NCBI GenBank assembly: GCA_050084515.1
Contig: CM114271.1
Location: forward strand, 27,528,001 to 27,592,000
From: Blasia pusilla
Lineage: Eukaryota
Reading direction: 5' to 3'
DNA length: 64,000 nt
Part shown: positions 11,387 through 61,680 of the stretch, piece by piece
How positions within the stretch are numbered: the first letter of the stretch is position 1
Layout: every line of letters starts with the position of its first letter
The notes under the pieces: generated by a model
Databases searched by the model: none
Told to the model about the DNA's origin: nothing
What the model saw: the letters and a program-made list of their open reading frames with translations, nothing else
Made by a program: the position numbers and the translations under genes

Positions 11387-14300
11387 TGTTAAAAAAAGGA
11401 TGACCCTATAAACCCATAAGGTATGCACCGGGTTTAGGGCCACTCCAACTATATTAGCATTACTTAGAACCATAAGTCTAGTATATTAGCTAGACTCATT
11501 TCTTAGTGTTAAGGAGACTCTTTTCTCTCCTAAAGTGTGTCTTCTCTTTCTCTTTCATGTAGTACACTGATATGCTAGAGTTAACCTTGTTAATGAGATT
11601 TGGGACTTTGCATTTTTCTACTTTGGATTTTTATCATGGTATCAGAGCTTGGCTTAATGTGAGACTTGGCAATTGCTATGCTATGGTTTAATGTCAGACT
11701 TGGTAATTGCTATGTTGCAAAGTTCTTTCCATTGATTTATGTTTCTTTAGTTTTCCTATTTTTTCTTCTAATCTGAAAATTAGTCTTGCACTTCATATAG
11801 ACTTTTCAGTAGTAAAAGCTCATTGTCTTCACTTTTATTTCATTTCCATAGCAATGGCTTCTTCATCGTCCGATCATCGCCTTGAACGGCTTGATGAAAG
11901 AAACTGTAGCACGTGGTCCTTTTCCATGATGTATTTATTGAGTACTCAAAAACTCTTTAAATATGTAGAAGGAAAGATCGAGAGACCAGGTGAGGAAAAT
12001 GCTCGTGCGAGAGACAAATGGGATGAGGAAGAGATGGAAGCGAAGGGGATCGAAGCAAGATCCATAATTTGGATGAAAATGCATCCATCCAATTACAAGG
12101 CTATGATGGAGGTATGAGAAAATCACGAGGATTAGATGAGATGAATCTCACATTTTTGGGTCCTAAGGGAGAACGCACTCCCGTGATTGTGAAGAATGTG
12201 CATTGGGTGCCCAATGCATTAGATACGCTTCTATCGCTGCAACCTTATGCAAAAGGGGCTGCAAATTCAACTTGGATGGAGATAGGGTAGATTGGTTCCT
12301 ACCGTCTGGAGATCTACTTGCAAATAGGAAGCTTGAGGGAAAGGCTTATCTCATGTGTTGTGAAATTGAGGAGACCACAATTGTGGCGAAAGCTTCTCTT
12401 GCAGGTTGATCACTTCTAGAAAAATTGTTGGCAACAAGTTAAGGAGCTAATGCCAACATGTGAGGCAGGTATCGTTGGTAAGGCACACGGTCAGCCTTTT
12501 CCAGAGATGCATAAGCATGCCAAGGGAATTCTAGATGTGGTCATTTCTGATCTAGGATATTTTGATATGCCTAGCTTTGGAGGTGCTAAATGGATGGTTG
12601 TGTGGACAGATGAGTGTTCGTGATACACTAGCTTAGCTTTCCTCATGACTAAAGATAAAACTCATGAAGCATACAGGATTTGGGAGAGTGAAGTACAAAG
12701 AAAGATGGAGCGGAAGGTGGAAACTTTCCTGACTGACCAAGGCACGTAGTTCTTAAACCAGAAGCTTGGTTCATACTTCAAGGCGCATGGAATCCAAAAT
12801 ATGGTAACAACTTCATACACACATGAGGTTTTTGGGATGACACAATGAATGATGCGCACTATCTTTGAAGGAGTTTGCACACTCTTTGCAAGAGCAAAGT
12901 TAGATCGTTGCTATTGGGCCTATGCAGAAAAAATTGTTGTGTGGACTCTTAATCGGCCACCACATGCACAACTTGGTAGTAAGAAACCCTATGAAGCACT
13001 TTATAATGAGAAACCTTCTATTGCCCATGCTCATCTATTTGGTTGTTCTGCTTGGTATCATATACCAAAGGAAATCTGGAAAAAGCTTGATGAAAAGGCA
13101 AGGAAAGGTATTTTTGTTGGCTATTCTGAGATTGCAAACGGGTATGAGATTTATCTACCAGAGAGTAAGGAGATAATTCTTAGTCGTGATGTCATATTTG
13201 ATGAAAAGGAGGTAACAATTGTAACCTCTGACCTAGGTCCTTCAAAGAAAAATGACAACCAAGATGTTGACCTTCATGTTGTGAAGTTTGGTTCTTCCAA
13301 TCCGACAGAAGTCCCAAACACCATAGAAGTTGGTGATACAAATATTCTTGAAGAAAAGAGGAAATTGGCGGGGGCACAAAAATGGAAGGAGATGTTCATC
13401 TAGAACAACATGTGAAATCTCATGCAAGGAGTGGAATTGATCCTATCAACATTATCGATGGACCACGCAGGCGCCAAACACCTTGGAGAGAAGATGATGA
13501 CTTTGTACGAGAAGATTTTCTTTTGGAGATCATTGACTCAACAAATCTTCCTCCACACTCTCAACCCGATCCCAAGACCTTGGGAGAAGCTTTGAACTCT
13601 CCCTTTGCAAATGAATGGAAAATGGCCATGCAAGAGGAGTTGCAATCTCTAAAAGAGCATGGCACATGGGAGATCTTCCAGTTGGAAGAAAACCCATAGA
13701 TTCAAAATGGGTATTTCGCACCAAGGTTGCATCAAATGGATTAGTTGTGAGGTTCAAAGCATGGTTGGTTGCAAAAGGCTACTCCGAAGTCAAAGGTATT
13801 GAATACCATGAGACTTTTGCACATGTGGCACGTCTTGCAACAATTCGTGTGTTTTCTGCTCTTGCAGCAACTCTAGATTGGAGTGTTCAACAACTTGATG
13901 TTGTTTCAGCTTATTTGAATGGAAAACTTAAGGAGGAGAATATCTTCATGAGAGTACTTGAAGGTTTGGATACTCCTCCATAGCACAAAGGCAAGGTTGT
14001 GCGACTGCTAAAGACTTTATATGGTTTGAAGCAAGCTGTACGTGGGTGGAATGAGAACTTGGATTGCTCCTTGTTGGCACTTGGTTGGCAGTGCTCTAAT
14101 TCTGACCCATGTCTCTACACAATGAAAATGGATCAGTTGGTCCTTGCTCTTATTGTGTATGTTGACGATGTGTTGATTGGAGGGAAATTTTTTGAGATTT
14201 TTGTGGCTCAAAAGGAAGATTTGCAGAGGTGCTACAAGATGAAAGACCTTGGTAAGTTGAATCATTTTTTCTCGGAGCAAAGGAGATGGAGCCATTAGTT

Positions 14301-19976: not shown

Positions 19977-21300
19977 TCATGACTTCCTCGCCAAGCTAAT
20001 ATAAAATGCTTCTTCCTCTGGGTTCCACTGGGAATCAGTACCAAGTTCTACCAAGGATATGCCAGTATTTTGCTCCTCACAATCATCAGACTCTTCATCA
20101 GATTCAGACTTCCCATAAACAAGAGAAACACTCGGAAATACTAGACTATTTGGTATGCGATTAGAGGCGCTATTACCAAGATCCATAGGAGTGGAAACAT
20201 TCTCCATGGTAGACTGCACCAAATTTCCCCCTGATACAACACTACCCTTTACATTAAGTTCTTCAGTAGTATCTGCTCTAGTCTCTTGAGAATATAAACT
20301 TTCCACTCTTGAGTAAAGCCTACTCTGATATCCATACTCTGCTACAAACCGACTTGCATCGGGACGTCTTCGTGTTGGGTCATCAGATATAGATCTCCCT
20401 ACAAGTTGGTCCGCTTTCAGCACTTGGCCCGTTTTCCGATTATGCCCTTGAAGTGCATAATGGCCACAACGTCTTTCAAAAGTGCGGGCAACCCTTGTCG
20501 TTGGTGCCCTACGCCCGTTACGAATACCTAACGGACCTCGCTGGGGGATATACTCATGCTGGCCACTCCCAACATCATCTTCATTCACAAACTCTTCATG
20601 TACAGGATAAGAAATCTCTTCACCACCTCCTTGTCCTCTTCGCATCTCGCCACCTCTTCCACCAAGAATGCGCACATAACGATGTCTACCACGCCGAACT
20701 GCAGGAAGGGGAGGTCGGCAATCCCAAGATGGTATAAGTTCATCACTCTTCACAACTGGTATACTGCTTTTGTAGATCTTCCTTATGAAGTCATTGGTCC
20801 AGATAGGATCAACAAGTTTCTGTGAGTCCATTCCAGTAATGACATCCCAAGCCATTACATGCGTACATGGCCAACAAGTATCTTGGAACTCTAGGCATGA
20901 ACAACTGCACTCAGGGTGCAAGCGGACATGAAATTGGTGTGCACTACTTGTGGAAGTGACAAGTGCATTTGTTGCTTTTGAGGCTAGTACATCAAAACTT
21001 TGACAGTTGGCTTCATTCTCTCGATAACGAATAAGTGCATAAGTAGTCAGTTTGTTGGAGAACTTCTCTGGGTGACATGCCTCTACTTTTCTTGCTGCAT
21101 AAGTTTTCATCATGTAATTCCATAACTCACAAGCAATGACAAGTGGAGGTCCCTCCCTGATAGGTTTGATGGCGGAATTTATGACCTCTACAAGATTTGA
21201 ACTCACTTTGCCATAGCGTGGCAAAGGGAATGCACACCTCGCAAACTTCTCTGGTCCTATCTCTCGTATGTACGAGGCTACATTAGCTATTCGTTGAATA
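19977..21300 (-). pseudogene. MULE transposase C-terminal half (catalytic E region, SWIM zinc finger, degenerate zinc knuckle)
   Basis: RYGKVSSNLVEVINSAIK, CSCSCLEFQDTCWPCTHV (SWIM), RRGR, RRCGHYALQGHNRKT. The upstream DD part of the catalytic domain is absent. Confidence 0.85.
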
Positions 21301-21321
21301 TGACTCCTCCAATCCAAATGA

Positions 21322-22909
21322 CACTCACACCAACAGCATGATTCACCTTCACCTGTACATGGAGTGAAGAATGGAGAAAGCAATGGGAATGAGCAACGGA
21401 AGGATGGTATTTATGGCTTGGATTGGCAAGAATTTGGGAACTTGCCTGAATGGAACACTCAGAAGGTAGGAGGTTGGGAAGTTCCCAATGTTTCTCAGTT
21501 CGGGCCTTCACAACACCATAGGGAGTCTCTAGGCACAACAAGGAAAGACACGGCAGATGCACCTATGAAGATCACTACAGAGGGCCCTCATGGGAACATG
21601 GCAAGCGGCACACCACGTGCTCACCCTACAACAACGACCAAGGCCCAACTTTTCGTGGAGCCTATGGTGATTACCCGAGGCTCTCAAACCATGGACAAGT
21701 TTCTTGTGAACAGAATGAGTCAAACTGACCATATGCTCACAGTGGATCAACAATTGCAAACAGATAGTATCCCTGAGGTGCATATGGTTAACCGCTTATG
21801 CGAGACTGAGAGCGTGTACCATGTGAACAACTATGTGCAAACTGAGGACTCCACATGGTGGATGAATTATATGCGGTCCAAAGCGCTAGCAATGGTTCCA
21901 ACACGCGGTGCTCCACAACCCACACCATCAAGTGAAGATGGTATACTCCCTAATGTTGGGGGAGCTGAAGGTTTGGACGGAAAAGAAGATGGGCTCAAAT
22001 CACAGAAGGTATTATGCCAATCTTCAATTGCCCATCTTCCTTTAGATGGCCTCTATTCTCCAATCGTTCTTTACAAATTGCAGTAAGTTCTTATGGATTT
22101 TTGGCATTCTCAGTGGAGGAGTCAACGTATAGGTGAAGGTTTACTCTATATTTGTTGGATTGTCCCAAAACCCTATCCAAAAATCCTTAGTAATCACAAC
22201 CGGCGCCTATTCACTATGGACGGCTATTCACACAGCCTTAGTGATCACAACCGGCGGGTAAACATAGCCGGCGCTTATTCATAGTGGGCGGCTATGCACA
22301 TCCAATGCCAATTTCTAGGCGGCGGCTAATCACAATCAAAGGCTTTGTGCTAAGCACAAAGTGGGGCTAATCACACACGACGACTTTTTTCCATTGTAGG
22401 TTATTTCATGTACACATTCCGTTTGTCTTTGGATGTAGGAACCAACGGAAGAAGTACCAGAGGAAGACCCGAGTGTGCCACAAGGAGGGTTTTTGATTGA
22501 TGAGAGAATCATACAATTGTGGATTAACCATTTGGGGATGCCCGCGGAAGATGTGGTGCATTTGGAATGTTGGGAGGACAAAATTCATCTCACTGAACGA
22601 ACCACAGCTAGAGTAGACAAGTATGTTGAAGTCCTGGAGCTAAGGCACGCAGCTCTTCTCGCTGACAGAGGAGATCTCATTACAAAGTTAAGAGTGACCG
22701 ACTATGACAACAAAGATGGGTGGGAAGAAGCCTTGCGTAGAGTGACAACCTTGCAAGATTCGGCAGCAAGGAATTCACAGTTTTTTTGTGATCTCTTGAG
22801 TAGGCTAGGTGTGTCATCAGACGGCTTGGACGAGGCATCCTGTTTCTCCAGGGCTCTAGTGGCTATTGTTGACTTGCAGCGGTTGGATTCTTCAGGTCAA
22901 AGCATGTAA
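21322..22909 (+). CDS. MULE accessory gene of unknown function (predicted exons ~21322-22008 and 22439-22909; N-terminus probably missing)
   Basis: Two long ORFs join in frame via AAG|GT at 22009 and TAG| at 22438 (phase 0). The last exon is homologous to 51540-51920 in the second MULE. Confidence 0.55.
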
Positions 22910-38300: not shown

Positions 38301-39193
38301 AGGGAATCGAGATTCTAACACTCTATCTCATACCAAACCATAAAAGTGAAAGTTTTGCAAAGGCTCAACATGATAAATATAGATCTTAAAAGCCATTGTC
38401 TTCCCAAAATATAGCCCAAATTGATAACTTGCTCACATAACTACATGTGACTTTTCATAAAATCAACATGTCATTTGACCCAAAATAGGAAAATAGATAT
38501 TTTTTTAGAAGTAAAGATTATGAGTGAAGAGAACTATAACTAACCTTATTCAACCACTAAAAATGTTTTTATAATCTACTTTTTTTTGGGTTCCTTATAC
38601 CATTCATAAGATAACTTTCGTTTTCTACTAACTATGTTATTAAGAAATGTCCATGATGACCTTCCATGGATGCGCAACAACTTCCAATAGTCAAAGTGGT
38701 TGGACCTACCATCAATCTTTTTTCTCGTGAACGCCAAGATATGATCATCACCTCATGGAGATAATTGCTTAAGAGGCCCCCTTGGGAACCATTTCCCCTA
38801 TAGCAACCCTCTAAGAACTCTCATAGGTCAAGCTTTATCGTGCCACCTAATCAATGTTGCACACAGAAAAAGTCCCTATCCGTGGACTTATGTCTGTTCT
38901 AGGGATGGACATGTTCCTACGGGCCCAGGTTTATGTTTCTAGCCCTGCCCAAAACATAGACTTGGGATTGGTCATCCATCACCCAGTCAAGCAACCCAAA
39001 GCCCATTCTTGCCACCCATTTTGTAGCCTCCATAGAGCTTGTGGAGACGCACATTGAGCCCATGTCTCGCCCATATCTAGCTAGTGTCAGCCCTCGTAGG
39101 GCTTGTAGAAGGCTCACAAAGAACTATCCATATGCGTCAACCATGGGCCTTGAGCTTGCCCTCTACGGAGCCTATAGGCCTTAGAGCCCATCC

Positions 39194-39640
39194 TCTAGAG
39201 CCCATTGCCCGCCTCTATGGTGGACCAACTTGGTGCCCCATGCGGTGTTACAGAGGGCGTATGCGAGAGTGGAGCGCCCCTCCCATTTGTTAGTGGATTC
39301 CATTCTGGATCCAGATCGTCGTTCACAGGCAATGAGGCACAATGATCGACCATCGTTGATTGTGGTCAATAGGGTACGCAAGCCGCGGGCAGCCTTTCCC
39401 ACATTTGTGAGTTTTCCGGCTTCCTATGCATACAAGGAGGCCGGTCCTGGCTTGGTTTGGGATGACCAGGTTCAGAGGTTGGTGGAGCCCAACGCCGACG
39501 AGAGAGAGCGGGCGATGGGATTTCCCACAAGAGTGACGGCAGTACCGTAAGTAGCAGAGGCATCACGACGCCATGTCTATGATCAGACGATGGACCTCAA
39601 CTGCTTGACATGGATCTTCAGCTTGGGAGTGGCTGAGCAG
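39194..39640 (+). pseudogene. Retrotransposon-borne C5-cytosine DNA methyltransferase domain, C-terminal part (DNMT3-like motifs VIII, IX, X)
   Basis: One frame reads SRAH(C)P(P)LWWTNLVP...FPTFVS...EPNADERERAMGFPTRVTAVP*VAEASRRHVYDQTMDLNCLTWIF, paralleling DNMT3 AAHRARYFWGNLP...EMERVFGFPVHYT...ARQRLLGRSWSVPVIRHLF. 5'-truncated. Confidence 0.75.
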
Positions 39641-39959
39641 CATCGGATGAGATCGCGACAGATCACAGCGGTTGCGTTGGTAAGCCCCATGCCTACCGAG
39701 ACGATGGGGGCAGTGGCTGGGGGCGAGAGCCGAGGAGATCGATACACTAGGGGAGATCGGGAGAGACACCCTTGGACTTCTTGGGATGTTTTGCAGGTAT
39801 GCCAGGAGATGTACGCCACAACATCAAGGGTGGTTCCGGGCACTGCATGTGGAGGAGATCAGAGTTTGCAGTTGGCTGCAGGAGAGCGGTCGAGTTTCGT
39901 TGTTCGAGATGGGGTTGCACCATAGCAACCACCGATATCTGCGCCGGAGAGTCCTACTG

Positions 39960-42900
39960 TAGTCACCATGGAGACTTGGGAGCCAGATATGGGCCCTAAG
40001 TTGACAGGAGGAGAGCCGCGCCGAATACATCACTTCCTCAGGACTTCTAGGAGCTGCTTTGCGTTTAGCATGGAGGATTTAGGTACGCTGAAGGTACCGG
40101 GGATCCGCATTGAGTTGTCGAGTGATACGCCGATCTTCCGACAACCCTACAGGTACAATGATATGGAGAGGGCTCTGATTCAGAGTAGGAGCCAAGACTT
40201 GGTTGGAGCATGGAGGATTTAGGTACGCTGAAGGGACCGGGGATCCGCATTGAGTTGTCGAGTGATACGCCGATCTTCCGACAACCCTACAGGTACAATG
40301 ATATGGAGAGGGCTCTGATTCAGAGTAGGAGCCAAGACTTGGAGGAGAGTATGCATTTGCCACTATCATGCCCGCCAAGAAGGATGTGCATGGCAACTAG
40401 ACGAATAGGCAGATATGTGCGGATTACCGACCTATCAATCGGTAGATGAAGTTCGATAGGTATGCCATGCCCACCCCTGAGGAACTCTTTGATGCGATTG
40501 GTCACGCAAAGTTCTTCAGTTCATTGGATTTGCGAGTCGGATACCATCAATTGCCTATCAGATTGGAGGACAGGAAGAAGACGGCATTTTGGGGCATCGA
40601 TCCTCACGGCAAGGATTGTTTGTACCAATGGCGGTTCTTACCATTTGGATTAAAGAATGCCCCGGTTGAGTTTTAGAGGGTCATGGATAGGATCTTGGCT
40701 GGTTTGGATTTTGCTAGGTGTTATATTGATGACATCGTAGTCTTTAGCCCCACGGTTGAGGAGCATGAGCGACATCTAGAGGAGGTGTTTCGACGATTGC
40801 AATTACATGGGTTGAAGCTACATCCAGGCAAGTGCAAGTTCTTCTATGACCAGATTGAGTACTTGGGTCATACGATATATCCAGGGGGCCTTGGTGTTCA
40901 GCAGACGAAGGTAGAAGTTATCTCACGCATTCCATTCCCTATAGATGTGAGCCGTGTTCGCGCATTCATGGGATTGGCGATACGTCAAGGGATTAAGTTC
41001 GATTGCAAAGCCGCTGACCTTGCTGATCAAGGTGGATCACGAGTGGCACTGGGGGGATGAGCAGAGAGTGAGCATTTCAATTGTTGAAGGACAGGTCGAC
41101 GTCTGCACCCATCTTGAGGAGATCGATCAGGGGGGCGTCCTTTCCATTGCACACAGATTGGAGCATGTTGGGGCTTGGAGAGGTGCTCACCCAACATGAT
41201 AATGAGGGTAGAGAGTTCGTGGTGGCTTACGCTAGCCGCTTGAATAATGCTGTAGAGGCGAAGAACAACTCGTATGAGGGTGAGTGCTTGGCTGCAGTGT
41301 GGGCTGTCGTGCATTTCAGGTGTTACTAATTCGGCAACCCCTTTACCATCATCACTGATCATCAACAACTGAAGTGGTTGATGGAGTCCGACAAGCTTAC
41401 ATGGAAGCTTGTGAGATGGGCTGTGTTGTTGCAAGAGTATGATTTTGAGGTGGTACATAGACCTGGGACGCTCAACCAAGATGCAGATGGGTTGAGTTGT
41501 AACCCATGCCCGAGTCATCGAGGTGCGACTGGTGCTCGATGGCATAGAGAGAGTGATGAGGAGTCAGTGCCAGGATGGCACGCATCAGCCTATTTAGGCA
41601 TGTTGGCTATGGAGAGCCAGAGTGTGGAGACTTCGATGGAGAGGTCTAGTGGAGAGTCCTTGGATCCCGAGGCCAGTGAGGAGACCACAAGTGGACGAGA
41701 TATTCGTGATGATGGAGTAGTCTTGGAGGACCTTCGTACTGGTAGCGTTGCGAGCATCGTGGGTGCTAGAGAGCGCAATCGGATCCTACAGCGGGCCAGA
41801 CAGTTCCGTTGGGAGGGGACATATGTTTTGAGGGTTTGGGAAGATGGCAGAGTATGCGTAGTGCCACATCCTTTGCAGAGAGCAGGACTAGTGCAGCATG
41901 CCCACGAGGAGTTGGGTCACTTTGGGGTGAAGCGGATGTACAACTTGCTCCAGATTTAGTGTTGGTGGCGAGGCATGCAGACTGACGTTTAGTAGTTTGT
42001 TGCCAGGTGTATGATCGGGTCCGGGCATCGTTCAATGCTGTGACTCCATAGTTGCATCCATTACCGATCATGGGCTTAGGGTATAGACGGAGTTTGGATT
42101 TTGTAGGACTTTTTCCTTTGACAGAGCGTCACAGTCGTTATGTGTTGGTGATGGTCCAGCACTTCTCAAAGTGGATCGAGTTGGTTGCATTGCGTGACAA
42201 AGCGAGTGAGGGAGTAGCTAATGCCTTCCTTGACTGAGTGCTGAGTCATTATGGCCTATTGGCTAAGGTGTTGACAGACCATGGTACCGAGTTTCGCGGT
42301 GAGTTCCAGACCTTGTGTGATCAGGCGCTGATCGACCACCCCACGACTTCGCGAGATCATCCTAAGGCAGATGGATTAGCGGAGAGAGTTGTGCAGACGG
42401 TGAAGAGGGGTTTACGCAAGTATGGCTTGCAGAGAGGTCATCTAGGAGATTGGGACCTCAAGTTGCCATGGTTGGCAATGGGATACAGATTCAGCAGGCA
42501 TGCATCCTTACCGTCTTTTGCACCGTACTTGCTACTTTATGGCCAAGAGCCAGATTTATCTACGGCCATTCGTCGAGATGTTGGTGAGGTGTTGGACCTT
42601 GATGACCCAAATGTATGGATGCGAGCATGTTCTCAAAGGGTTGAGTTGTTTCGGAGAGTGATGCCCATGGCATTTGAGAACTTGGCGATTGCGCAACATC
42701 AGGATATGTTGAGGTATGCGACTATTCGGGGTGATGGTTATCGACCAACTATCCGGCGGTTCCATCAAGGAGATTATGTCTACTTGCAGCACACGACACC
42801 GACGATATTGGATGTGACTATAGGGCGCTATCCTGAGAGTGCGTGACGTTTTGCCATCCGGTGTTCTCTTGCTAGAGGGACGCGATGGTATGGTATGGAA

Positions 42901-42990
42901 GGACCATGTGCGTAATTGTGCGCCATGTCACCTTCCTAATATTGATGGTACAGTAGATCCGAGCTTAGCAGTAGTTCCTGTAGGCTTGTG
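39960..42990 (+). pseudogene. Ty3/Gypsy pol remnant: RT - RNase H - integrase
   Basis: FSSLDLRVGYHQ, LPFGLKNAP, YIDD at 40722-40733, LHTDWS, SYEGECLAAVWAV, HEELGHFG, LTDHGTEF, DGLAERVV. Includes a 140-bp tandem duplication (40067-40340). Confidence 0.95.
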
Positions 42991-43125
42991 TGTATGTTGT
43001 GTGGTTCTGCTCGTGGTGCGGCCACGATGCTGATCTATGATGGATGTTCGAGAGGTTGGCATATGGCATGTCTGACGCCACCTCTCACTAAGGTTCCTTG
43101 GAGATGATGGATGAGTGCTAGATGT
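42991..43125 (+). pseudogene. PHD finger at the integrase C-terminus
   Basis: CMLC...MLI(Y)DGCSRGWHMACLTPPLTKVPWR*WM(S)ARC fits the C4HC3 PHD pattern 'CD.C.RG(F/W)H..CL.PPL..VP.G.W.C..C' with two decayed Cys. Confidence 0.85.
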
Positions 43126-43446
43126 ACATAGCAGAGATACTAGGCATGTTTCGATTCCAAATTTTTCTGTGACATGGATGATAGGAAGGTGACTAACGAT
43201 GGGGCCAAATGAGCATCCGACCTTTCTGCTCTCAGCGTCCTAGAGATGTATGTCGTGGTAGGTAGGGATAGATGGCTATTTGGAGTTAGAGGGACCTAAC
43301 CACCAGCAGGGGGACGATTGGAGATATTTTGGTACTTCTCGCCTATGTGTTTGGATGCCATGAGTTAGCATGGGATCATGCGTGTTTGTGTGTGTGTTTG
43401 GTGACAACGATGTATGTTGTGTAGCGATGTGTATGCGCACGACAAC

Positions 43447-44088
43447 TGTCACGTTTTTTTGGATAGTTCGGTGAGATTTAGGAGAGCGCCTTTGTGAGTA
43501 GTGGAGGATAGGTTCAATAGGTCGAGGATGAATTGTTAGGGCCCTCGGGAAACCTGAGAGAGCAGGTTTCCCCTTTGTTTCGGTTCATTTGGAGCCATAT
43601 TGAGCAACTTACTATTTAGATAAGTACCATTTTCAGTATATTATCGAGTTTTTATTTTTGGTAAGTGGCCCTTGACCTCCTATATCTGGTCAAGAGCCAA
43701 GGAGGCTACTTGGGATAATAGGTTACCATGGAGAGCGCTTGGGAGAGGGAAGGGGTATACCTCAAGGAGAGAGAGCTTGAGAGCTCATACTCTCTTTGTT
43801 GAACCTCTTGGCATGAGGCAGTGGAGCTATGGTCCCTTGCCTTGTGAGTGTAACCCAAGCCTCTCGTTAGGAGAGTGGGTTTGGTTTGACATGAGAGAGA
43901 GTGCATAACTTTGAGAGCTATGGTGTGAGATGGTGTAGAGAGATATTGGATCTTACTTTAATTGGAGATATTTTAGTACTTCTTGTCTCGTTGTTTGGAT
44001 GCCATCAATTAACATGGGATTGTGTGTGTTTGTTTGTGTGTTCGGTGACAGCGATGTATATTGTGTAGCGATGTGTATGCACACGACA
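43447..44088 (+). mobile_element. 3' LTR of the DNMT/PHD Gypsy element
   Basis: TGTCACG...CACGACA. PPT-like AGCAGGGGGACGA near 43305-43317. Preceded by an extra LTR 3'-end fragment (43318-43444) and followed by a partial LTR duplication (44089-44277). Confidence 0.85.
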
Positions 44089-44279
44089 GAGAGCTTGAGA
44101 GCTCATTCTCTCTTTGTTGAACTTCTTGGTATGAGGCAGTGGAGCTATGGTCCCTTGCCTTGTGAGTGTAACCCAAGCCTCTCATTAGGAGAGTGGGTTT
44201 GGTTTGACATGAGAGAGAGTGCACACCATTGAGAGCTATGGTGTGAGATGGTGTAGAGAGAGATTGGATCTTACTTTTT

Positions 44280-46600
44280 GGTCTGCACGTGCTCATCTGC
44301 CAATCGTCGAAGCTCCTCAGTCGAGCCCCACAACGGCACCTCTCTTCCAGGGAATCATGCGGCTACCATAACAATCCTCTCCATAGAAATGTCCGGAATG
44401 GGTGTATCCTCTGCATGGACCCTCAATCAAATCACTAGGCCAAGTGATGGCACTGCTAAATGCTGCTAAGGTCGCCACCTCTCTTGGCCGTCGCTCGATC
44501 ATTGCACATGTGAATCGAATGGGTAATGAGCTAAGGCGCCCATCATCAGATTGCCATCCTGGTCTGTAGCACGCTGATTTCTCCCAATATTCTTGGGAAA
44601 ACCCATTGGGTATAACACTACGTCATCAACCAAGACGTTGTAGGACTCTCCACCAGTCACTATCGCCTTGGCTCGCACCACGGACTCATCTGTAGGATGT
44701 CTGAGGTGAATCCTCACCATGATCTCCTGTCGGGTGATATATTGTGTGGTACTCGCTCCACCCAAGGATGACTATATCCGGAATGGACAACGCTCCACAT
44801 TAGCTCTCGTCAAGCCCAATCCTCTGAATGACGCTTTCCCCAACATCAGGGGTTGTACTCCTGAATCCAACAAGACGCGCTGCGGACTAAAAGCTCTACC
44901 TCCAGGACTCACCAACTGGAAGAGCGCTCCTCGGTTATCCAGCAACACAACACCAAGAGAAGCCATGGCACACTCTATCGCGGGTCTAGCGGGCATCTCC
45001 GCCATCCTAGTAGCCGCAGCTTGCCATGAATCTGACGTGGACGGCACGAGCATCCGCTCCAAGGGCAAGTCCATCACCTCCTCTGTAATCACCTCTAAAC
45101 GTGATGCAGGAACTCCAACTCCACGCTCACATAGTGAAGCGGCCAGCCAAAAAGCCTCGGCGGGCGTACCCCCCAACGTCATAACATCGGAAGCAGAAAA
45201 TAAAGGAGTGGGGTACACAACGGTGGCCGCCCCCAACAACGTGCTCGACACATGCCCCTCATGAGCATCAACAATAGGAGTCGTCGTACTCGCTTCTCCC
45301 ATTGTCCTTTGTGCCTGCACACCAACAACATCACCAACTCTCTAGGAACTCTGATCAGGACCCATCAATGGGGTCCTCATCGCCTTGGACAACGTGAAAG
45401 ACTGAGGAAGCCTAGTCTATTTCCTGGTTTCCCCTCGCTGTGGATCCAACTTTGCGGCTGCTCCACACGTCACAATTGCGGATGCCTCCATCTGGGCAAC
45501 CCCGCACATCCAACCAGGATCCTCCAGATCTCTGGCTTCTCCATATGATGTCGATGCCATAGATTCGGCATCAGGTAACCTCAATGCCATAACGGCAATC
45601 TGCTCATGTAGCTGCTGTATCTGAGCAGCCATCCCAGCCTCACGTCCGGCGTCTCCCTCGGCGCGTCTAGGTGATGGTACTCTACCTCCTCCATGGGCAG
45701 CTCCACCACCGTGTCGGGAAACTCCAGCTCCTCATCCCCCAACAGGACCACATGGTGCATAATCTCTAGGCCCACCCGGACCGGCTACTTGCTTTGGTGC
45801 CCTCTCTGCCCCTCGATCCGGACGTAACTCATGATGAAAACTGAAACACCTGGCGCGTGTATGACCATACCTCTGACAATAGTCATAATGATAACCTCCT
45901 GGTATAGCACCATCTCCTCCTCCATGTTGAGGCACACGTCCATGATCCTAACGAGTGTAATCGCGCTCATGATGGGCTCCACCACATGACCAACAAGTAA
46001 TAGTAGGCGGTTGCTGCTGAGCCGCATATGAAGGCGCACGTCTCTGTGGCACGGCCCCCCGGTATCCTCCTTGAACTTGTGGTGCCACAGTCGACCTATC
46101 TCGGAGTCCACGTTGCTGCATAGGTAGTGCAGACAATCGTGACTGCTCTCGCCCAGAACCCGTGGTGGCTACGCTCTCCTCCGCCATGTTGCACTCAATG
46201 TTCTCGGCGGTCTTGAAAACATCTCTCAATGTAGGGGATGTGTTCATAAGAAGCACCCCCTCCCGCACCCGTGTCCGCAGGGTCTGGTCTAGCATCGCTC
46301 ACCATGACTGGATAGCTTGAGCCTCTGTCATCCTCTGAGTGACGTTGATCAACCAGCGCAAGCGAGTCTAAGCCTCACGCAAACTCTCACCCGGGCGCCT
46401 CTGGAAGTCGTGGATGCTCCGCAACTTCTCCGTCCGTACCCCCTGGTAGCTCGCCCTCAACTGAGCAAAGAACTCAACCACAGGGTTGAACCTGGACAAA
46501 CCCGACTAGACAGTGCAACCAACTGCTCCCGTGCGAGTGAGCGTCATAGTCACCATCGCCGAGGATTTTTGGCTGGCCGTTTCACTATGTGAGCAGAGTT
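44280..46600 (-). pseudogene. Gypsy gag (two CCHC-like knuckles) and aspartic protease, inverted copy
   Basis: CWSCGGAHHERDY, YCQRYGHTRARC, protease VLLDSGVQPLMLG and YNVLV. Truncated at 44280 just before the expected methyltransferase N-terminus. Confidence 0.85.
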
Positions 46601-46639
46601 GGAGTTCCTCCATCACGTTCTGAGGTGATTGCAGAGGAG

Positions 46640-49065
46640 GGGATGGAGTTCCGGAGGTAGAGCTTTTAGTCTGCAACGCGTCTTGTTGGATTCAGGAGCA
46701 CAACCTTTGATGTTGGGGAAAGAGTCATTCACAGGATTGGTCTTGACAAGAGCTGATGTGGAGCGTTGTCCATTTCTGATACAATCATCCTTGGGTGGAG
46801 CGAGTACCACACAGTATATCACCCGACATGAGGTCATGGTGAGGATTCGACCGGGACATCCTACAGATGAGTCTCTGGTTCGAGCCAAGGCGATAGTGAT
46901 TGATGCAAAGTCCTATGACGTCTTGGTTGGTGGAGCAGTGTAATACCCGATGGGGTTTTCCCTGGATTATTGGGAGGAGTCAGCGTCCTATAGTCCAGGA
47001 TGGCAGTCAGGTGATGGGTGCCTTAGCTCATTACCCGTTCGATTTACAGGTGCAGTGATCGAGCGACGACCAGGAGAGGTGGCGACCTTAGCAGCATTTA
47101 GCAGTGCCATCACTTGGCCTAGTGATTTGATTGAGGGACATGTCCATGTAGAGGATACTCCCATTCTTGAAATTTCTATGGAGAGGAGTGTTATGGTAGC
47201 CGCATGATTCCCTGGAGAAGAGGTGCCGTTGTGGGGCTCGACTGAGGAGCTTCGATGATTGGCAGATGATTGTGTGAGAGTGGAGCGCCCCTCCCATTTG
47301 TTAGTGGATTCCATTATGCATGGAGGTCATCGCTCACACGCAGTGAGGCACGATGATTGACCACCGCTGACTGTGGTCAACATGATTCCCACGTTTGTGA
47401 GTTTTCCCGCTTCCTATGCATACAAGGAGGCCGGTCCTGGCTTGGTTTGGGATGACCAAGCTCAAAGGTTGGTGAAGCCCAATGCCGACGAGAGAGAGCG
47501 GGCGATGGGATTTCCCACAAGAGTGACGACAGTACCGTCAGTATCAGAGGCATCATGATGCCATGTCTTGGGTCAGGCAATGGACCTGAGCTACTTGACA
47601 GGGATCTTCAGCTTGGGAGTGGATGAGCAGCGTTGTCGTGTCGAGAATCTTTCTTCGAGCAAGGGCGGGCCTTCTAGCTGCGGTAGATGCGGTCGATGCA
47701 AGGTGAACTCTCTAATAAGTTCTCCTTTTTCAATACAAAATTATGATGTACACTCTCCATTCTCTCACGACAGGTATCACAAATGGAAGTGCCGAGGCGA
47801 TCACTTCTTCGTAACATCGGACCCCGAAATTCCTAACTATAAAATCCCTATAAACTATTTTACGTTTGTACACGAGGAAGATAGCACAACTAGTGTTAAA
47901 CCCTACTTGACCAGGCCTATTGACATCCATGGATCGCTATATAAGGACATACAAAGTACAATCCCATGTCCTTCCATATGTGACGATAGGAAGAATCACC
48001 GGAGTTGGAGATTGCATGACCTGGTTCATGAACGCCTCCCCAAAGTGATAAACTAAATAGCGAGTGAACCAGTGCCTATCTACAAAGAGTACCTTGACAT
48101 GGTAAGGATTGAGGAAAGGAAAGTCGGGCACAGCTCGTGCTCCACCCCTATCCATGCTTGACAGACATTCTCTACTCTCCTCAAGAATGGGTTTTGGCGG
48201 AGTTATTCTCCCAAGAGGGTAATCCACTCTCATTGGGGGAAGTAACAAGCCAAAACTTCCGCTATTTTAGTATGACTAAACTCCTCTACGGTGACAAACC
48301 TCTCATACCCACACACACACACCACACTCTAGAAATCTCTCAAAGAATAGACCATAGTCAAGTTACTCTCCCAAGAGGGGTGATCCATTCTCATTGGAAG
48401 AGCAAGCAATCCCAAAGCCATACACTCAAGAGAGACACGAGAGACTCAAGATGTGGAATAGAAGGTGATGAACCCTTGAAGGTCCCTCCTCTTTATATAC
48501 TCACAAGGGATCCACAAGAGTACGAAATAGAGCTGATCTTATCTTGTGCCACATGGCTTCCTCTCAAGGCTTAGCCAATCACATTTTGACACAAGTAGAT
48601 TTCCTCTTATCTCTTTCAAAATATCCTCTTTTACCCACATGATATTTTCCAAATTACCCCAACTAACCTAGCCACCAACCAAGACTACTTTTGCTTTTCA
48701 TTAAAGCAACTACTTTACTTTTATAAAGTCATCTTTTATTTATAACCTCCTTTTCCTAAAGTTGGGCCCGCATAAAAGAGGCACCATAAAGAGGTTTAAA
48801 CATAAGAATCTCCTTTTTCTAAGCCAATTTACTTAATACTAATGAAACTCTATCTAACACTTAATGACGAAGGAGTTTACACACAGGTTGATTTTACTAT
48901 ACGACAGCGGTGGATGAGATTGCAAAAGATCACAACAATTGCGTTGGTGAGCCCCATGCCTACCGAGACGGTGGAGGTAGTGGCTGGGGGCAAGACCTGA
49001 GGAGATCTACACACAAGGGGAGATTGGGAGAGACACTCTTGGACTTCTTGGGATGTTTTGCAAGA
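46640..49065 (+). pseudogene. Second Gypsy fragment: protease - linker - (deletion) - DNMT motifs IX/X, interrupted by a solo LTR
   Basis: VLLDSGAQPLMLG...YDVLVG, then RVERPSHLLVDS...KPNADERERAMGFPTRVTTVPSVSEAS*CHVLGQAMDLSYLTGIF (about 47276-47610). Resumes at 48911 after the insertion. Confidence 0.85.
47634..48906 (-). mobile_element. 1.27-kb solo LTR, copy B
   Basis: Near-identical to 6280-7551, flanked by GCGT/GCGG. The paralogous empty site near 39635 has a single copy of the target. Confidence 0.9.
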
Positions 49066-49561
49066 TTGACCATAAATTTTTACTCGCAACTCCAAATTGC
49101 ACACCGTTTGTTGCCCAACGTGCACAATTTCACAATCTACAACGGCGTCAAAAAATATTGGGAATTTTGACATTTGAGTAAGAATTGATAGGGATTGTCG
49201 TAAAGCCCAATGTCTCTTTCTCCTACATAAAATTTTGCGGCGCTTCCGCGCTGATTTCTCCCAACCGAAATGTAAAACCTGTAAAAATACAAATCAGCAA
49301 GCTACATAGTGCTTGCGAAAGCACCAACATGGGGCAACCCGCCCCCATAATCAATCCCTATTAGAAATTGAGCAGCGCTTCCGCGCGCCACTCTTCCACA
49401 CAAAAAATCGGGAAATGCAAAGAACAATCAAAGCGGCCCTTGCTCCGATGAGCACTCCCATGAGCCACTGAACGGGGAACACGGTCCCCAACCTACAAAA
49501 ACGATGAGTGACCAGCGAGCTCCCCCATGAAGCTCTCTCACTCTCTCATTCTCTCTTTGTG

Positions 49562-50074
49562 AAGTAAGATCCAATCTCTCTTTACACCATCTCACACCAT
49601 ACCTCTTAAAGGTGTGCACTATCTCTCATGTCAAACCAAACCCACTCTCCTAATGAGAGGCTTGGGTTACACTCACAAGGCAAGGGACCATAGCTCTACC
49701 GCCTCATGCCAAGAGGTTCAACAAAGAGAGAATGAGCTCTCAAGCTCTCTCTCTCCTTGAGATATAACTCTCCCCTCTCCCAAGCTCTCTCCATGGTAAC
49801 CTATTCTCCCAAGTCATCTCCTTGGCTCTTGACCTGATGTAGGAGGTCAAGGGCCACTTACTAAAAGTAGAAAGTTGATCATATACTCAAAATGGTACTT
49901 ACCTAAAATAGTAAGTTGCTCAATTTGCTCCAAATGAGGCGAAATGAAGGGGAAACCTGCTCTCTCAGGTTTCCCGGGGCCTCAGCAGGTCATCCTTGAC
50001 CTGCTGAGCATGTCCTCCATTGCTCACAAAGGCGCTCTACTAGATCTCACCGATTTATCCTAAAAGACTTGACA
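49562..50074 (-). mobile_element. 5' part of a DNMT/PHD Gypsy LTR, inverted
   Basis: Reverse complement starts TGTCAAGTCTTTTAGGATA and matches about 4029-4525; truncated at GGATCTTACTT. Confidence 0.85.
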
Positions 50075-58272: not shown

Positions 58273-61200
58273 TGTCACGTTGTGGTCCTTGGTTTTTCCA
58301 AACATAATAGCCCTTATTACTCCCGTTTCCATTGGCTATTTTTCTTTCCAAAAAATGTCTTAATTCATTTTTTAGTCTATTATAGTAAATTATAAAAGAA
58401 CTTGTGTGATGAAAAACATGGCCAAACTACCATTCTCTATCCCAATAACCATCTCTCAATTGCAAAAAGCTTTTTTTTTTGGAAATAAAATCCACCCAAA
58501 AATTATCAATATTCTATTGTTAGTTACATGGTTATTGTAAGATGGTCCATATGACACTCCCCTTTGGAAAGGTTTATATGAAACCTTGGGATGATGGAAT
58601 AGTCAATAAGGTAGGTAATTTTATGGTCTATTTGAGTGCATCACATAAGAATTCACACCCACTAGAAAAAGGTGTGAATTATCTTTTGCACCTACTATCT
58701 TGAACATCCGTCTTGTATGATGTGGAAGCATGCATTCAACTTGTCATGCTCTCGTTCCTCACTTGCACCCAAACACATTATCACGTCTTTTGGGATGGAT
58801 CAAGTCTAATCAATAAGTCTTTTGTAGAATACCTTCCGGGATATTGGAGTACAACCTCAAGAGATCGAGGATAATCTATTGGGGCCTCGGCTAATCCGAG
58901 AAAGCAGATTTCCCTTTCGTTTTAGCTCATTTGGAACTATATAGAGAAGCTTACTATTTTTAGTAAGTTACCGTTATGAGTATAGTTGACTTTCCATGTA
59001 AAGAAGTGGCCCTTGACCCCCTACAACAAGTCAAGAGCCAAGGAGGTGACCTATGAGCATAGGCCACCATGAAGAGTTTGGGAGAGGGAAGGGGATACAC
59101 TCAAGGAGACAAAGCCGTTGCCCATTTTTTTTTATTTAGTTTGAGTCTTGAGATGGAGTTATTCCTATTGGTGCTCCTAGTAGCATACTTTAGCTTTTTG
59201 GATTTCATTTGTACAGGTTTGCAATCTTTTGAGAATGAAATCACCTTGGAAGTGTTGCCGAATTTTTTGTATGAGCTTAGGTCGTGGGCTACAATATAAT
59301 TTCCGCTAGTTTCATATGGAAGGTTGGTAGAAGGAGCTCATTTGATGATATTTTTTATGAAGGAGTTATGCACCTTGTCGAAGAAATGGTGTGCAATTTC
59401 AACACTGGAGCTCAAAGTGTGGTCATACTAATGGGGTGCCATAGCCAACACGTGAAATCTTGTAACTTTGTTTGGTGGGTTAGGAAAAGTAAAAATCCTT
59501 TTATTTTAGTGCATAGCAAGACAAGGGAAAAAATAATTTGACGGTGAAGTAAAGTGAAAACTTTATTTAGTGGAGTATGAGCCAAATTTGAGATAATTTT
59601 GGTGAGTTGATCTTGTTTAAGGGGTTAGTGGAATGGAAAAAAAACATTGACTTTTGAATAAGGTTAAAATAGAGCCATGTTTACCTATGTGTGACATAAC
59701 ATAATTACCATTGACCTTCACCAACCATCTATTGTTCAACCACGGTCGTCTATTCGATGACTGTCAAGTACCGCTTGTCACTATTCGTGTGTCGTCGATG
59801 TATGGGGTCAAGTTTCGAGGTATGGTTAATCATGCATAGTGATTGGTAGCTGCTTGAAAATGATTGAGTATCATGCCATGATTCCCATACACGCAATGCG
59901 CCACCGATTGTTGCGCCGTGATACTTGTGGCCGCACCTTCTTGATCACAAAGACGCACGAGCACTAAGGAGTAGAGCGTGTATTGCTAATAGATGAGGGG
60001 ATGCCATTGTATGTCCCCTCCCATCACCTAATACAATGTTATTTTTATTTCTATTGTGCAGTATCGTACCGCAGTACCCTCCACTACACATCGAGGAGGT
60101 TTGAGCATCGTCAACATCGGGGGAGTAGGACTTGCTGACTAGAGGAGTTATCTTCACAATTGAGTTGGGATCTAGGTTTGCAATTTTTGGGGAGCAAAAA
60201 TGACATTGTTTCCACATTATCCATTCTAGTCTTTTGCCCTACTTGTGTGAGGGAATTCCGAGTATTGGGTAGTTTTTTTGGCATATAGGGTTTGTACGGA
60301 TGTTGAGAGCGTCATTGATGTATGAAATTAGGGGACATAGAGCTATGTGGGATTTCTAGAGTTCTGGGTATGCTATGTGGATGAGATGATAGACCAGTGA
60401 TTTGTCGCACGATGCCACTTGTTGCCACACTACGCACATCTCGATGGGAGGAAGTGGAGATTGAGTGCCGCACATGTTAGTTCTAAGTGATTGAGGGATT
60501 GCTCGTAGGATTGAGAGTGATCGTATGAGGGGGCACGAGGGTCATCATGGCATCTTTTCAGTACTTTGAGAGGGAAGGTGGTGTGTCTACGAGTAGCTCT
60601 AGAGGTCTTCCGTGGAGTGGCACGAGGTTTCATGGGTCTCTACATGAGGGATTACCTTGACCTCCTTCTGTATTGTCCTCAAATGAGGAAGAAGATATAG
60701 AGGGTGATTTTGTTAGTGTACTATCCTACGCAATGAGTGTTCCTATCGTTAAGGCGTACGAGATGGATGACCAAGGTAGAGGACCACATAGGTTTTTGGA
60801 TGTTGTGGATACCATAGAGTTACACAACTTCATTGCGGAGTTTAGAAGATGGTGTGACTCACACAAGGCCAAGAACTCCAGAGAGTTCAACTCTTTTAGA
60901 ACATGGAACGGGATGTTCTAGCAACTAGAGGTCCATGGATAATTATCATGAGTTTTCCTAGAGGTACTCACCGGAGATTGAGGCTTGGAGCCTATACTAT
61001 GATCCGCACTACGTGTCGTGTCATAGACTAAGCCATTTCTAGATGAGGAGGAGGAGCTAGGGGAGTCTACTTCCTCTGCCATAGGGATGAGTCAGACTAG
61101 GGCAATTGCATCGTCCAGTTGGCCGGGTTTGGCCTAGGTTCAACCCCGTGGTGGAGTTCTTTACGGAGTTATGGAGGAATTATTAGGGGAGACGGATTGA

Positions 61201-61680
61201 GAAGTTGTGGAGCATCCATGACTTCCATAGACACACGGGAGAGGGTTTTTGTGAGGCATTTACTATCTTGCTTTGTCTGATTAGTGTCACTTAGGGGTGA
61301 TAGAGGCACAAATTGTTCAAGCATGGTATGGGATGCTGGAATCAGACATGCGAAAATGGGTGAGGGATGCAATACTTATGATGCACACCTCACCTACATT
61401 TAGAGATTTGTTTAATATGGCGGAGTGCATTGAGTGCAACATGTCCAAGGAGAGTGTAGCAGCCATGAGTCATACGCAAGAGCAATCACGATTGCCTTCA
61501 CCACCAATGCAGCAACGTAGATTTTGAGAGAGTGTGGCACCACAAGATCAAGGAGGTTACCGTGATCATGTGCCATAGAGACCCATGCCAGCATATGCGG
61601 TTTAGTAGCAACCGCCAAGAGTTATTTGTTGGGCATGTAGTGGAACCCATCGCCAACAAGATTGCATCGTCAGGGAAGTG
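58273..61680 (+). mobile_element. Older relative of the DNMT/PHD Gypsy (LTR remnants plus gag)
   Basis: 58880-59110 resembles the family LTR (AAGTGGCCCTTGACC...TCAAGAGCCAAGGAGG). Gag MLESDMRKWVRDAILMMHTSPTFRDLFNMAECIECNM matches 45948-46295. Left boundary (TGTCACG at about 58273) is tentative. Confidence 0.65.

What the first reader, a model, noticed from the sequence alone, without database searches (positions are those of the whole stretch)
39194..47625. Gypsy retrotransposon carrying a DNMT3-like cytosine methyltransferase between protease and RT
Seen: upstream of RT, one reading frame gives SRAH[C]P[P]LWWTNLVP (39194-39238; TGC could be CpG-decayed CGC), then about 95 aa later EPNADERERAMGFPTRVT and, from two copies (39480-39620 and 47475-47610), consensus SRRHVLGQAMDLNCLTWIF. 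The second copy places this block directly downstream of the protease (LLDSGA). Known: these match C5-MTase motifs VIII, IX and X as in DNMT3A (AAHRARYFWGNLP; EMERVFGFPVHYT; ARQRLLGRSWSVPVIRHLF). No motif I follows motif X, so the order is DNMT3-like, not the permuted DRM order. As I recall, DNMT-bearing retrotransposons have been reported in dinoflagellates and the charophyte Klebsormidium; I am not aware of a description in a land plant. Inference: the ancestral polyprotein was gag-PR-DNMT-RT-RH-INT-PHD and might methylate its own cDNA or target sites. Limit: motifs I-VI, including the catalytic PC, are missing from all copies here.
Basis: partly seen in the sequence, partly recalled or inferred. 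Interest (0 to 1): 0.92.

Follow-up and report, generated by a model that had tools for sequence, protein, structure and literature searches.

The report
Dead liverwort-type Gypsy copies with DNMT3 remnant
These are broken copies of a highly repeated jumping gene, closest to liverwort elements, whose intact relatives carry their own DNA-methylating enzyme; here only the enzyme's tail end survives.

Summary
Both blocks read as described (39194-39655 and 47280-47645).

They are real remnants of a C5 cytosine methyltransferase, not chance motifs:
- A search of 1.84 billion proteins gave 620 relatives (best E 3.7e-56).
- Intact relatives place PF00145 in the same polyprotein. They carry motifs I, IV (PC), VI (ENV), VIII, IX and X in DNMT3 order.
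- The family profile hits DNMT3A best in the PDB (2.6e-18). A confident model matches the DNMT3A/B/C fold (TM 0.79-0.81).

The gag-PR-DNMT-RT-RH-INT order is seen in single relatives. The PHD finger is confirmed in copy A.

Named closest relatives are liverworts (18 Marchantia polymorpha proteins, Calypogeia, Riccia) and Sphagnum. A sister group in green algae has the order RT-RH-DNMT-INT-PHD.

The window copies are dead. Copy A is cut off at 39194. Copy C lacks 240 residues covering motifs I-VIII. Both carry stop codons, and copy A also has frameshifts. No motif I-VI remnant exists in the window.

Other copies in the same organism continue the DNMT frame upstream of 39194. The family is highly repeated and transcribed in sense.

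I file it as a new member of the known Gypsy-DNMT3 kind (Klebsormidium, 2018). Seven literature searches found no description in liverworts or mosses, although the proteins already sit in public annotations.

The parts
39194..39655 (+). Copy A: C-terminal part of the DNMT3-like domain (motif VIII, target-recognition stretch, motifs IX and X). The copy is cut off at its 5' end at 39193/39194. It has one in-frame stop, and both motif VIII arginines are replaced (C and P).
   Evidence: Profile hit at positions 306-459, E 1.3e-64. Equals Marchantia P0161 residues 1023-1215. Nothing upstream matches. 57 (X1) and 20 (X5) contigs run on differently before 39194.
39656..40343 (+). Copy A: linker between DNMT and RT. 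It includes a 136-nt tandem duplication (40067-40202 and 40207-40342, 99% identical) that shifts the frame.
   Evidence: P0183 residues 689-779.
40344..40979 (+). Copy A: reverse transcriptase.
   Evidence: PF00078, E 1.6e-29. tblastn with P0183 and P0053.
41072..41833 (+). Copy A: RNase H, in a different frame from the RT.
   Evidence: PF17917, E 8.4e-29..
42001..42729 (+). Copy A: integrase core, in a third frame.
   Evidence: PF00665, E 7.8e-9. tblastn with P0053 residues 1941-2181.
42991..43125 (+). Copy A: C-terminal PHD finger.
   Evidence: PF00628, E 1.6e-6, 28.4 bits against a cut-off of 24.
43317..44277 (+). Terminal-repeat (LTR) region after copy A. One unit spans 43317-43960. A partial second unit spans 43961-44277.
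   Evidence: Direct repeats D2 and D5. This region has the highest word depth on the laid stretch.
44283..46586 (-). Copy B: gag, protease and the spacer before the DNMT. It ends where the repeat region of copy A begins.
   Evidence: Equals P0161 residues 111-807. Inverted repeats I1, I4 and I6 with copy C. RNA reads lie in sense to it.
46629..47279 (+). Copy C: protease and the spacer before the DNMT.
   Evidence: P0161 residues 638-807, P0183 residues 137-350.
47280..47645 (+). Copy C: DNMT remnant from just after motif VIII to motif X. It is joined in frame to the spacer, so P0161 residues 808-1047 (motifs I-VIII) are missing.
   Evidence: P0161 residues 1048-1177. Profile hit E 1.9e-40. 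83-91% DNA identity to copy A (D1, D6).
48905..49063 (+). Continuation of copy C after about 1.26 kb of other repeated DNA.
   Evidence: 87% identical to 39638-39795 (D3). tblastn.
49562..50074 (-). Inverted copy of the terminal repeat.
   Evidence: Inverted repeats I2, I3, I5 and I7, 78-95% complementary.
60763..61665 (+). Fourth fragment of the family: gag only, with many stops.
   Evidence: Equals P0161 residues 4-329. Translation.

Best explanation
What it is. The window holds at least four broken, rearranged copies of one highly repeated Ty3/Gypsy LTR retrotransposon family. In this family the Gag-Pol polyprotein reads gag - protease - DNMT3-like C5 cytosine methyltransferase - RT - RNase H - integrase - PHD. 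The host is probably a liverwort.

State of the window copies. They keep only the C-terminal third to half of the methyltransferase. Copy A has motifs VIII-X. Copy C has the stretch after motif VIII through motif X. Neither can methylate anything. The AdoMet-binding motif I, the catalytic Cys of motif IV and the ENV of motif VI are all gone. Stops interrupt both copies and frameshifts also interrupt copy A.

The family elsewhere. Intact family members exist in other liverworts and in Sphagnum, and more complete copies exist in this same organism. They conserve the catalytic residues.

How the intact element most likely works (inferred, not shown). The enzyme is made as part of Pol and travels with RT and integrase in the particle. 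It methylates the element's own newly made cDNA, or the DNA at and around the insertion. This is the idea put forward for other retrotransposon-borne DNMT3s. I give that mechanism about 35%, against other roles: acting in trans on host chromatin, acting on RNA, or serving only a structural role.
For: Homology
- 620 homologues, best E 3.7e-56.
- PF00145 lies next to or over the block in 6 of 6 long hits and in 5 of 8 further relatives.
- Alignments show motifs I, IV, VI, VIII, IX and X in that order.
- Of 31 PR-DNMT-RT-type full domains, 30 keep Cys+ENV and 26 keep PC.

DNMT3 class
- Profile against the PDB: DNMT3A 2.6e-18, DNMT3B 1e-15, DRM 7e-10 or weaker, M.HhaI 2e-5.
- Model of relative P0160: pLDDT 82.8.
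- Foldseek: every one of the 35 rows printed is DNMT3A, 3B or 3C. Best is 6w89_A at 3.9e-18, TM 0.79 over 320 columns.

Gypsy backbone and collinearity
- RT, RNase H and integrase; PHD.
- P0053/P0152 read zf-CCHC, protease, DNMT, RT, RNase H, integrase in one protein, collinear with copy A.
- Marchantia P0183 and P0195 read DNMT, RT, RNase H.

Decay
- Truncation at 39194 and the 240-residue gap at 47279/47280.
- At least 3 frame changes in copy A and 5 stops in copy C.

Same organism
- Contigs of runs X1 (57) and X5 (20) continue upstream of 39194. Their consensus, translated in the block's frame, reads AVFLDAASVG. That is the stretch preceding motif VIII in relatives.
- Word depth jumps from 21.6 to 17983 (X1) and from 15.6 to 3930 (X5) at the element's edge.
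- In both RNA runs the reads lie in sense to copy A and to copy B.

Placement
- In a DNMT tree, copies A and C pair (96). They sit with Marchantia P0161 and the unnamed P0158 (95), inside the PR-DNMT-RT group (97).
Against: - Pfam finds nothing in the window pieces themselves, even at E<=10. The DNMT assignment of the window block therefore rests on homologues, not on a direct profile hit.
- No copy in the window shows motifs I-VI.
- For this organism I saw only 10 residues of upstream continuation, not a whole domain.
'Liverwort' rests on the nearest relatives of a mobile element.
- Most RNA reads are under 95% alike to the window: 157 of 6022 (X22) and 191 of 6808 (X23) are 99% or more alike. 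They show expression of the family, not of these copies.
- Enzyme activity has not been shown for any member. The Klebsormidium Gypsy-Dnmt3 domain gave no methylation in yeast, which the authors call inconclusive (PMC5890265, section 10 read in full).
Confidence: 0.92

Rival explanations
1. The three motifs are a chance resemblance. The stretch is just a fast-evolving protease-RT linker with no methyltransferase ancestry.
For: Pfam gives 0 families for the window translations at E<=10.
Against: Homologues at E down to 3.7e-56 carry PF00145 in continuity with the block. The whole domain of a relative, including the part that survives here, folds like DNMT3A/B/C. The profile hit on the window has E 1.3e-64.
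Confidence: 0.01
2. The block is a fragment of the host's own DNMT3 gene. It lies beside, or was locally captured by, one Gypsy insertion and is not a feature of the element family.
For: The domain is DNMT3-like. Copy A is flanked upstream by low-depth, apparently unique DNA.
Against: Two copies in the window are joined in frame to Gypsy parts: RT downstream in A, protease upstream in C. The block itself has the several-hundred-fold word depth of the element. 53 of the 330 DNMT-profile-matching proteins place the DNMT after a protease or before an RT, RNase H or integrase.
Confidence: 0.02
3. The in-frame form lacking motifs I-VIII (copy C, perhaps copy B) is not a local accident. It is a propagating subfamily that keeps a non-catalytic DNMT tail, for example as a spacer or as a partner for full-length enzyme, in the way DNMT3L partners DNMT3A.
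For: The junction at 47279/47280 is in frame. In intact relatives both sides of it read VVQ, which would fit template switching during reverse transcription. Copy B's match to relatives ends at the same residue, 807.
Against: Copy B is simply cut there by the repeat region of copy A. The B-C likeness ends at 44293/47269 and the A-C likeness begins at 39262/47273. The junction could therefore be a local inverted duplication joined to an A-like piece. Word depth over 47224-47574 is among the lowest of the element's bins. Copy C has 5 stops.
Confidence: 0.1

Closest known systems
KnitGypsy-Dnmt3 of the charophyte Klebsormidium nitens (de Mendoza et al. 2018, PMC5890265; passages and section 10 read)
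   Same: A non-rearranged Dnmt3-type domain lies inside the Pol polyprotein of a Gypsy-type LTR retrotransposon in a streptophyte. Key catalytic residues are conserved in intact copies.
   Different: Here the nearest hosts are land plants (liverworts, Sphagnum). The paper does not mention Marchantia or Physcomitrella (0 occurrences each). Its domain order is given only in a figure I could not see. No named hit or 46 is from Klebsormidium. Common descent with that family is therefore untested.
Animal DNMT3A/3B/3C catalytic domain (PDB 6w89, 6brr, 6kda, 8tci)
   Same: Same fold and motif order I-X. This is the best sequence-profile match and the best structural match.
   Different: Only 19-22% identity. 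No PWWP or ADD domains. The domain is embedded in a retrotransposon polyprotein and is about 40 residues longer. Motif X reads GQAMD.
Plant DRM (domains rearranged methyltransferases; PDB 4onj, 7l4c)
   Same: Distant homologue within the DNMT3 group.
   Different: DRM is circularly permuted. It matches only profile positions 36-162 and far more weakly, at 7e-10 to 2e-7.
Green-algal Gypsy elements with the order RT-RH-DNMT-INT-PHD (Haematococcus, Monoraphidium, Hariotina, Chromochloris, Cymbomonas proteins)
   Same: Homologous DNMT domain (33-40% identity to the Marchantia domain), related RT and integrase, and a C-terminal PHD finger.
   Different: The DNMT sits between RNase H and integrase. 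In the DNMT tree the two orders fall on opposite sides of one branch (97). The proline of the PC motif is E in 67 of 128 algal-type domains.
SymbioDIRS-Dnmt3 and SymbioLINE-Dnmt of dinoflagellates (PMC5890265)
   Same: A retrotransposon-borne DNMT. For the DIRS type, de novo CG methylation was shown in yeast.
   Different: Different retrotransposon classes (tyrosine-recombinase DIRS, LINE) and a different host lineage.

Membership tests
C5 cytosine DNA methyltransferase (PF00145), as a working enzyme | Motif I (AdoMet binding, FxGxG) | tested here: not met
   Absent from all window copies: no profile hit outside positions 306-459 at E<=10. Present in relatives: the first Gly in 31 of 31 PR-DNMT-RT-type domains.
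C5 cytosine DNA methyltransferase (PF00145), as a working enzyme | Motif IV catalytic Pro-Cys and motif VI ENV | tested here: not met
   Absent from the window. In relatives, Cys+ENV are kept in 30 of 31 and PC in 26 of 31.
C5 cytosine DNA methyltransferase (PF00145), by descent | Motifs VIII, IX and X in homologous continuity with a PF00145 domain | tested here: met
   In copy A both motif VIII arginines are replaced. Copy C lacks motif VIII.
DNMT3 class (as against DRM, DNMT1, DNMT2 or bacterial enzymes) | Linear motif order I to X, and best similarity to DNMT3 catalytic domains | tested here: met
   Tested on relatives. PDB profile search: DNMT3A 2.6e-18, ahead of DRM, M.HhaI and DNMT2. Fold search: TM 0.79-0.81 to DNMT3A/B/C. 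No phylogeny with host DNMT3, DNMT4 or DNMT5 was possible here.
Ty3/Gypsy LTR retrotransposon | Order PR-RT-RNase H-integrase with a gag zinc knuckle | tested here: met
   RT, RNase H and integrase in copy A. Protease and gag in copies B and C by homology to P0161. zf-CCHC and protease by Pfam in P0053/P0152.
Ty3/Gypsy LTR retrotransposon | A pair of long terminal repeats flanking one copy, with target-site duplication | tested here: inconclusive
   Only a 3' repeat region (43317-44277, partly duplicated) and an inverted copy (49562-50074) are seen. No copy in the window is complete.
Gypsy-DNMT3 retrotransposons (KnitGypsy-Dnmt3) | Dnmt3-type domain within the Pol ORF of a Gypsy element | tested here: met
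   Met in relatives as single proteins. In the window it survives as in-frame remnants.
Gypsy-DNMT3 retrotransposons (KnitGypsy-Dnmt3) | Shared descent with the Klebsormidium elements | not testable with these tools
   No Klebsormidium sequence came back in any search.

The most novel reading that the evidence does not exclude
Liverworts and Sphagnum harbour an undescribed Gypsy lineage that is still transcribed and high in copy number. It encodes a catalytically competent DNMT3-like enzyme between protease and RT. It shares a single ancient capture of DNMT3 with the green-algal RT-RH-DNMT-INT-PHD elements, and the domain later moved within Pol. If so, retrotransposon-borne DNMT3 is as old as the green lineage. 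Its function could also be tested genetically in Marchantia polymorpha.
Probability: 0.3. Interest if true: 0.7.

Novelty: new member of a known kind. Interest (0 to 1): 0.45.

Why it matters
Retrotransposons that carry their own DNA methyltransferase invert the usual picture, in which methylation is the host's weapon against them. What the enzyme does for the element is still open (PMC5890265, discussion passages read). The described cases are in dinoflagellates and one charophyte alga, which are hard to manipulate.

This finding, followed outward, shows the same kind of element in land plants. The catalytic residues are conserved, and there are many annotated copies in Marchantia polymorpha, which I recall to be a genetically tractable model. 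That would make the question testable.

The window itself adds little beyond being the pointer, because its copies are dead.

Tried and rejected
This does not refute homology, because the surviving part is the poorly modelled C-terminal third.
- **My idea that 38851-39100 holds decayed motifs IV and VI in other frames.** Rejected: there is no profile hit, only noise in relaxed tblastn, and the one upstream extension is gapped and weak.
- **My first reading of PLWGS in copies B and C as motif VIII.** Rejected: the alignment shows it is the spacer before motif I.
- **First structure model** (12-row alignment): mean pLDDT 44.7, unusable. It was replaced by a 32-row alignment.
- **Whole genome of the window:** not held. 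Full-length copies of this organism could therefore not be collected.
- **Run index:** no RNA holder listed.
- **Link to Klebsormidium:** none of the named hits is from it.
- **Literature.** Seven searches (and the passages read) found no description of Gypsy-DNMT3 in liverworts or mosses.
  - A 2026 preprint (10.64898/2026.05.21.726589, passages) speaks of 'streptophytes (Gypsy-DNMT3)'.
  - PMC12344493 (passages) cites only the 2018 paper.
  - Supplements are closed and may list such elements.
The residue count was then made by position numbers.
Full report
**What is in the sequence**

A second copy at 47274-47657 lies in one frame with a protease (LLDSGAQ) at 46629 onward, with five stops. 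Within the window these are the only two copies of the block. A 53-residue continuation lies at 48905-49063.

Downstream of the first copy lie, by Pfam:
- RT (E 1.6e-29), RNase H (8.4e-29) and integrase (7.8e-9);
- a PHD finger (1.6e-6, above the cut-off).

These domains sit in three different frames. The region is 50-54% G+C, against 43% for the window.

**Is the block a methyltransferase remnant?**

Pfam on the window pieces finds nothing, even at E<=10. A phmmer search of 1.84 billion representative proteins finds 620 relatives at E<=1e-3, of which 282 are at E<=1e-10. Most of the listed 150 match query residues 4 to about 150, so the block is a bounded domain.

- All 6 long hits I scanned carry PF00145 directly before or overlapping the matched stretch. 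Five are above Pfam's cut-off.
- So do 5 of 8 further relatives, including Marchantia and Calypogeia proteins.
- Alignments of 55 relatives' regions and of 12 short relatives show a full set of motifs in linear order: motif I (LFGGISTG), IV (GWPCQG), VI (ILENV), VIII (GSRAHRPRLWWTN), IX and X.
- Of the 346 proteins fetched, 330 match my profile of the domain and 190 span it from motif I to X.
- Among the 31 full domains of the PR-DNMT-RT type, 30 keep the catalytic Cys with ENV.

**Which class of methyltransferase?**

A profile of alignment A1 against all PDB sequences ranks as follows:
- DNMT3A first (2.6e-18), then DNMT3B (1e-15) and DNMT3C;
- DRM (7e-10 to 2e-7), matching profile positions 36-162 only;
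- M.HhaI (2e-5) and DNMT2 (3e-4).

The DNMT3A alignment is collinear, with a second stretch over motifs IX-X.

A first model from 12 sequences was poor (pLDDT 44.7). A model of relative P0160 from 32 sequences is confident (pLDDT 82.8, over 90 through residue 330). Foldseek returns only DNMT3A, 3B and 3C among the 35 rows printed. The best is 6w89_A at E 3.9e-18, TM 0.79 normalised to the target, over 320 columns. The part that survives in the window therefore belongs to a DNMT3-type fold. I could not make a tree with host DNMT3, DNMT4 or DNMT5.

**Architecture**

- P0053/P0152 (2188 and 2327 residues) read zinc knuckle, protease, DNMT, RT, RNase H and integrase in one protein. They are collinear with copy A.
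- Marchantia P0161 reads gag-PR-DNMT. P0183 and P0195 read DNMT-RT-RNase H.
- Of the 330 proteins with the domain, 53 show the PR-DNMT-RT order, 143 show RT-RH-DNMT-INT, and 134 show the DNMT alone. My queries biased this sampling.
- Named members of the first order are Marchantia polymorpha (18 proteins over), Calypogeia fissa, Riccia sorocarpa and three Sphagnum species.
- Named members of the second order are green algae: Haematococcus, Monoraphidium, Hariotina, Chromochloris and Cymbomonas.
- I built a quick maximum-likelihood tree of 49 DNMT rows. It used all 13 first-order rows left after dereplication at 70% identity, 34 of 107 second-order rows, and the two window blocks. The two orders fall on opposite sides of one branch (SH-aLRT 97). 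The window blocks pair (96) and sit with Marchantia P0161 and the unnamed P0158 (95). The tree is unrooted.

**State of the window copies**

I mapped the copies with Marchantia P0161.

- Copy B (minus strand, 46586-44283) covers residues 111-807.
- Copy C covers residues 638-807 (46779-47279) and then residues 1048-1177 (47280-47645). The 240 residues holding motifs I-VIII are missing at one in-frame junction.
- Copy A begins at residue 1023 (39194).
- A gag fragment lies at 60763-61665.

My profile hits the six-frame window only at the two blocks. Relaxed tblastn and a targeted alignment show nothing credible upstream of 39194.

Whether the copy C junction marks a subfamily or a local rearrangement is open. 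Relatives read VVQ on both sides of it. But the B-C likeness ends at 47269 and the A-C likeness starts at 47273.

**The same organism**

The run index gave coded runs. The best holder had 37% of the sampled words. I laid runs X1 and X5 (contigs) and X22 and X23 (RNA reads) on 38800-49300 at 85% likeness.

- Summed word depth rises from 21.6 to 17983 (X1) and from 15.6 to 3930 (X5) at the bin that starts at 39151. This measure is not a copy number. It does show that the element is highly repeated and that the upstream flank is not.
- 57 (X1) and 20 (X5) contigs run on before 39194 with a shared consensus. Translated in the block's frame, it reads AVFLDAASVG, matching the residues before motif VIII in relatives. 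More complete DNMT copies therefore exist in this organism, and 39194 is a true truncation point.
- RNA reads lie with the first mate on the minus strand over copy A and on the plus strand over copy B. By the usual stranded-library convention this is sense to each.
- Only 157 of 6022 (X22) and 191 of 6808 (X23) laid reads are 99% or more alike to the window. The transcripts come mostly from other copies.

**Mechanism**

Nothing here tests function. The conserved catalytic residues across relatives argue for a working enzyme in intact elements.

The 2018 paper (PMC5890265; section 10 read in full, other sections as passages) reports:
- de novo CG methylation in yeast by the dinoflagellate DIRS-borne DNMT3;
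- an inconclusive negative result for the Klebsormidium Gypsy domain;
- the proposal that cDNA is methylated on reverse transcription.

I adopt that as the most likely role, at about 35%. A position between protease and RT would put the enzyme in the particle with the cDNA. This step is inferred.

**Known or new**

Gypsy-DNMT3 is a described kind (Klebsormidium nitens, 2018). That paper does not mention Marchantia or Physcomitrella. Later papers I could read in passages cite only it. Yaari 2019 and the Marchantia sperm-methylation preprint do not mention such elements. I found no description in liverworts or mosses in seven searches. Supplements were closed, and subscription journals are outside the library.

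The proteins themselves are already in public annotations. One Marchantia entry bears a UniRef name beginning 'DNA (cytosine-5'.

**Verdict**

The window copies are non-functional. The family is a new, land-plant member of a known kind, of moderate interest.

Noticed in passing
window 19977-21410 (-): An open 477-residue frame with no Pfam family. The protein atlas places it with SWIM/MULE transposase-like clusters of streptophytes (score 0.93, 183 shared features). It is probably a Mutator-like element.
   Followed up: partly
window 12849-13403 (+): The ORF carries the retroviral-polymerase SH3-like domain PF25597 (E 2e-27). This is a different retroelement from the one studied.
   Followed up: no
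window 40067-40342: A 136-nt tandem duplication, 99% identical with a 140-nt period, lies just before the RT of copy A. It is young compared with the rest of the decay.
   Followed up: no
window 43317-44277 and 49562-50074: The repeat region after copy A is arranged as unit a, middle, unit b, then a and b again. Contigs of X1 join 44278 back to 43319. The figure legend for KnitGypsy-Dnmt3 describes DIRS-like split repeats (PMC5890265). Whether this family has the same layout needs a complete copy.
   Followed up: partly
window 47646-48904: About 1.26 kb of other highly repeated, transcribed DNA interrupts copy C. RNA lies mostly with the first mate on the plus strand. Many reads begin at 48634-48657 and run off at 48906. 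Its first 80 bases also occur at 6277-6357.
   Followed up: no
window 42969 and 40980: RNA reads leave copy A at 42969 (63 and 67 reads, agreement 0.99) and at 40980 (60 and 72 reads). A 54-base skip 40980-41035 is seen in 16 and 23 reads. Either the expressed copies differ from copy A there, or there is splicing.
   Followed up: no
relatives of the RT-RH-DNMT-INT type: The proline of the catalytic PC motif is E in 67, P in 44 and S in 13 of 128 algal-type domains. The V of ENV is T in 64. The Cys is kept in all 128.
   Followed up: partly
protein P0322: A 1974-residue Gypsy polyprotein with this DNMT is labelled in NCBI as coming from a Minisyncoccia bacterium MAG. This is most likely eukaryotic DNA binned into a bacterial genome.
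   Followed up: no
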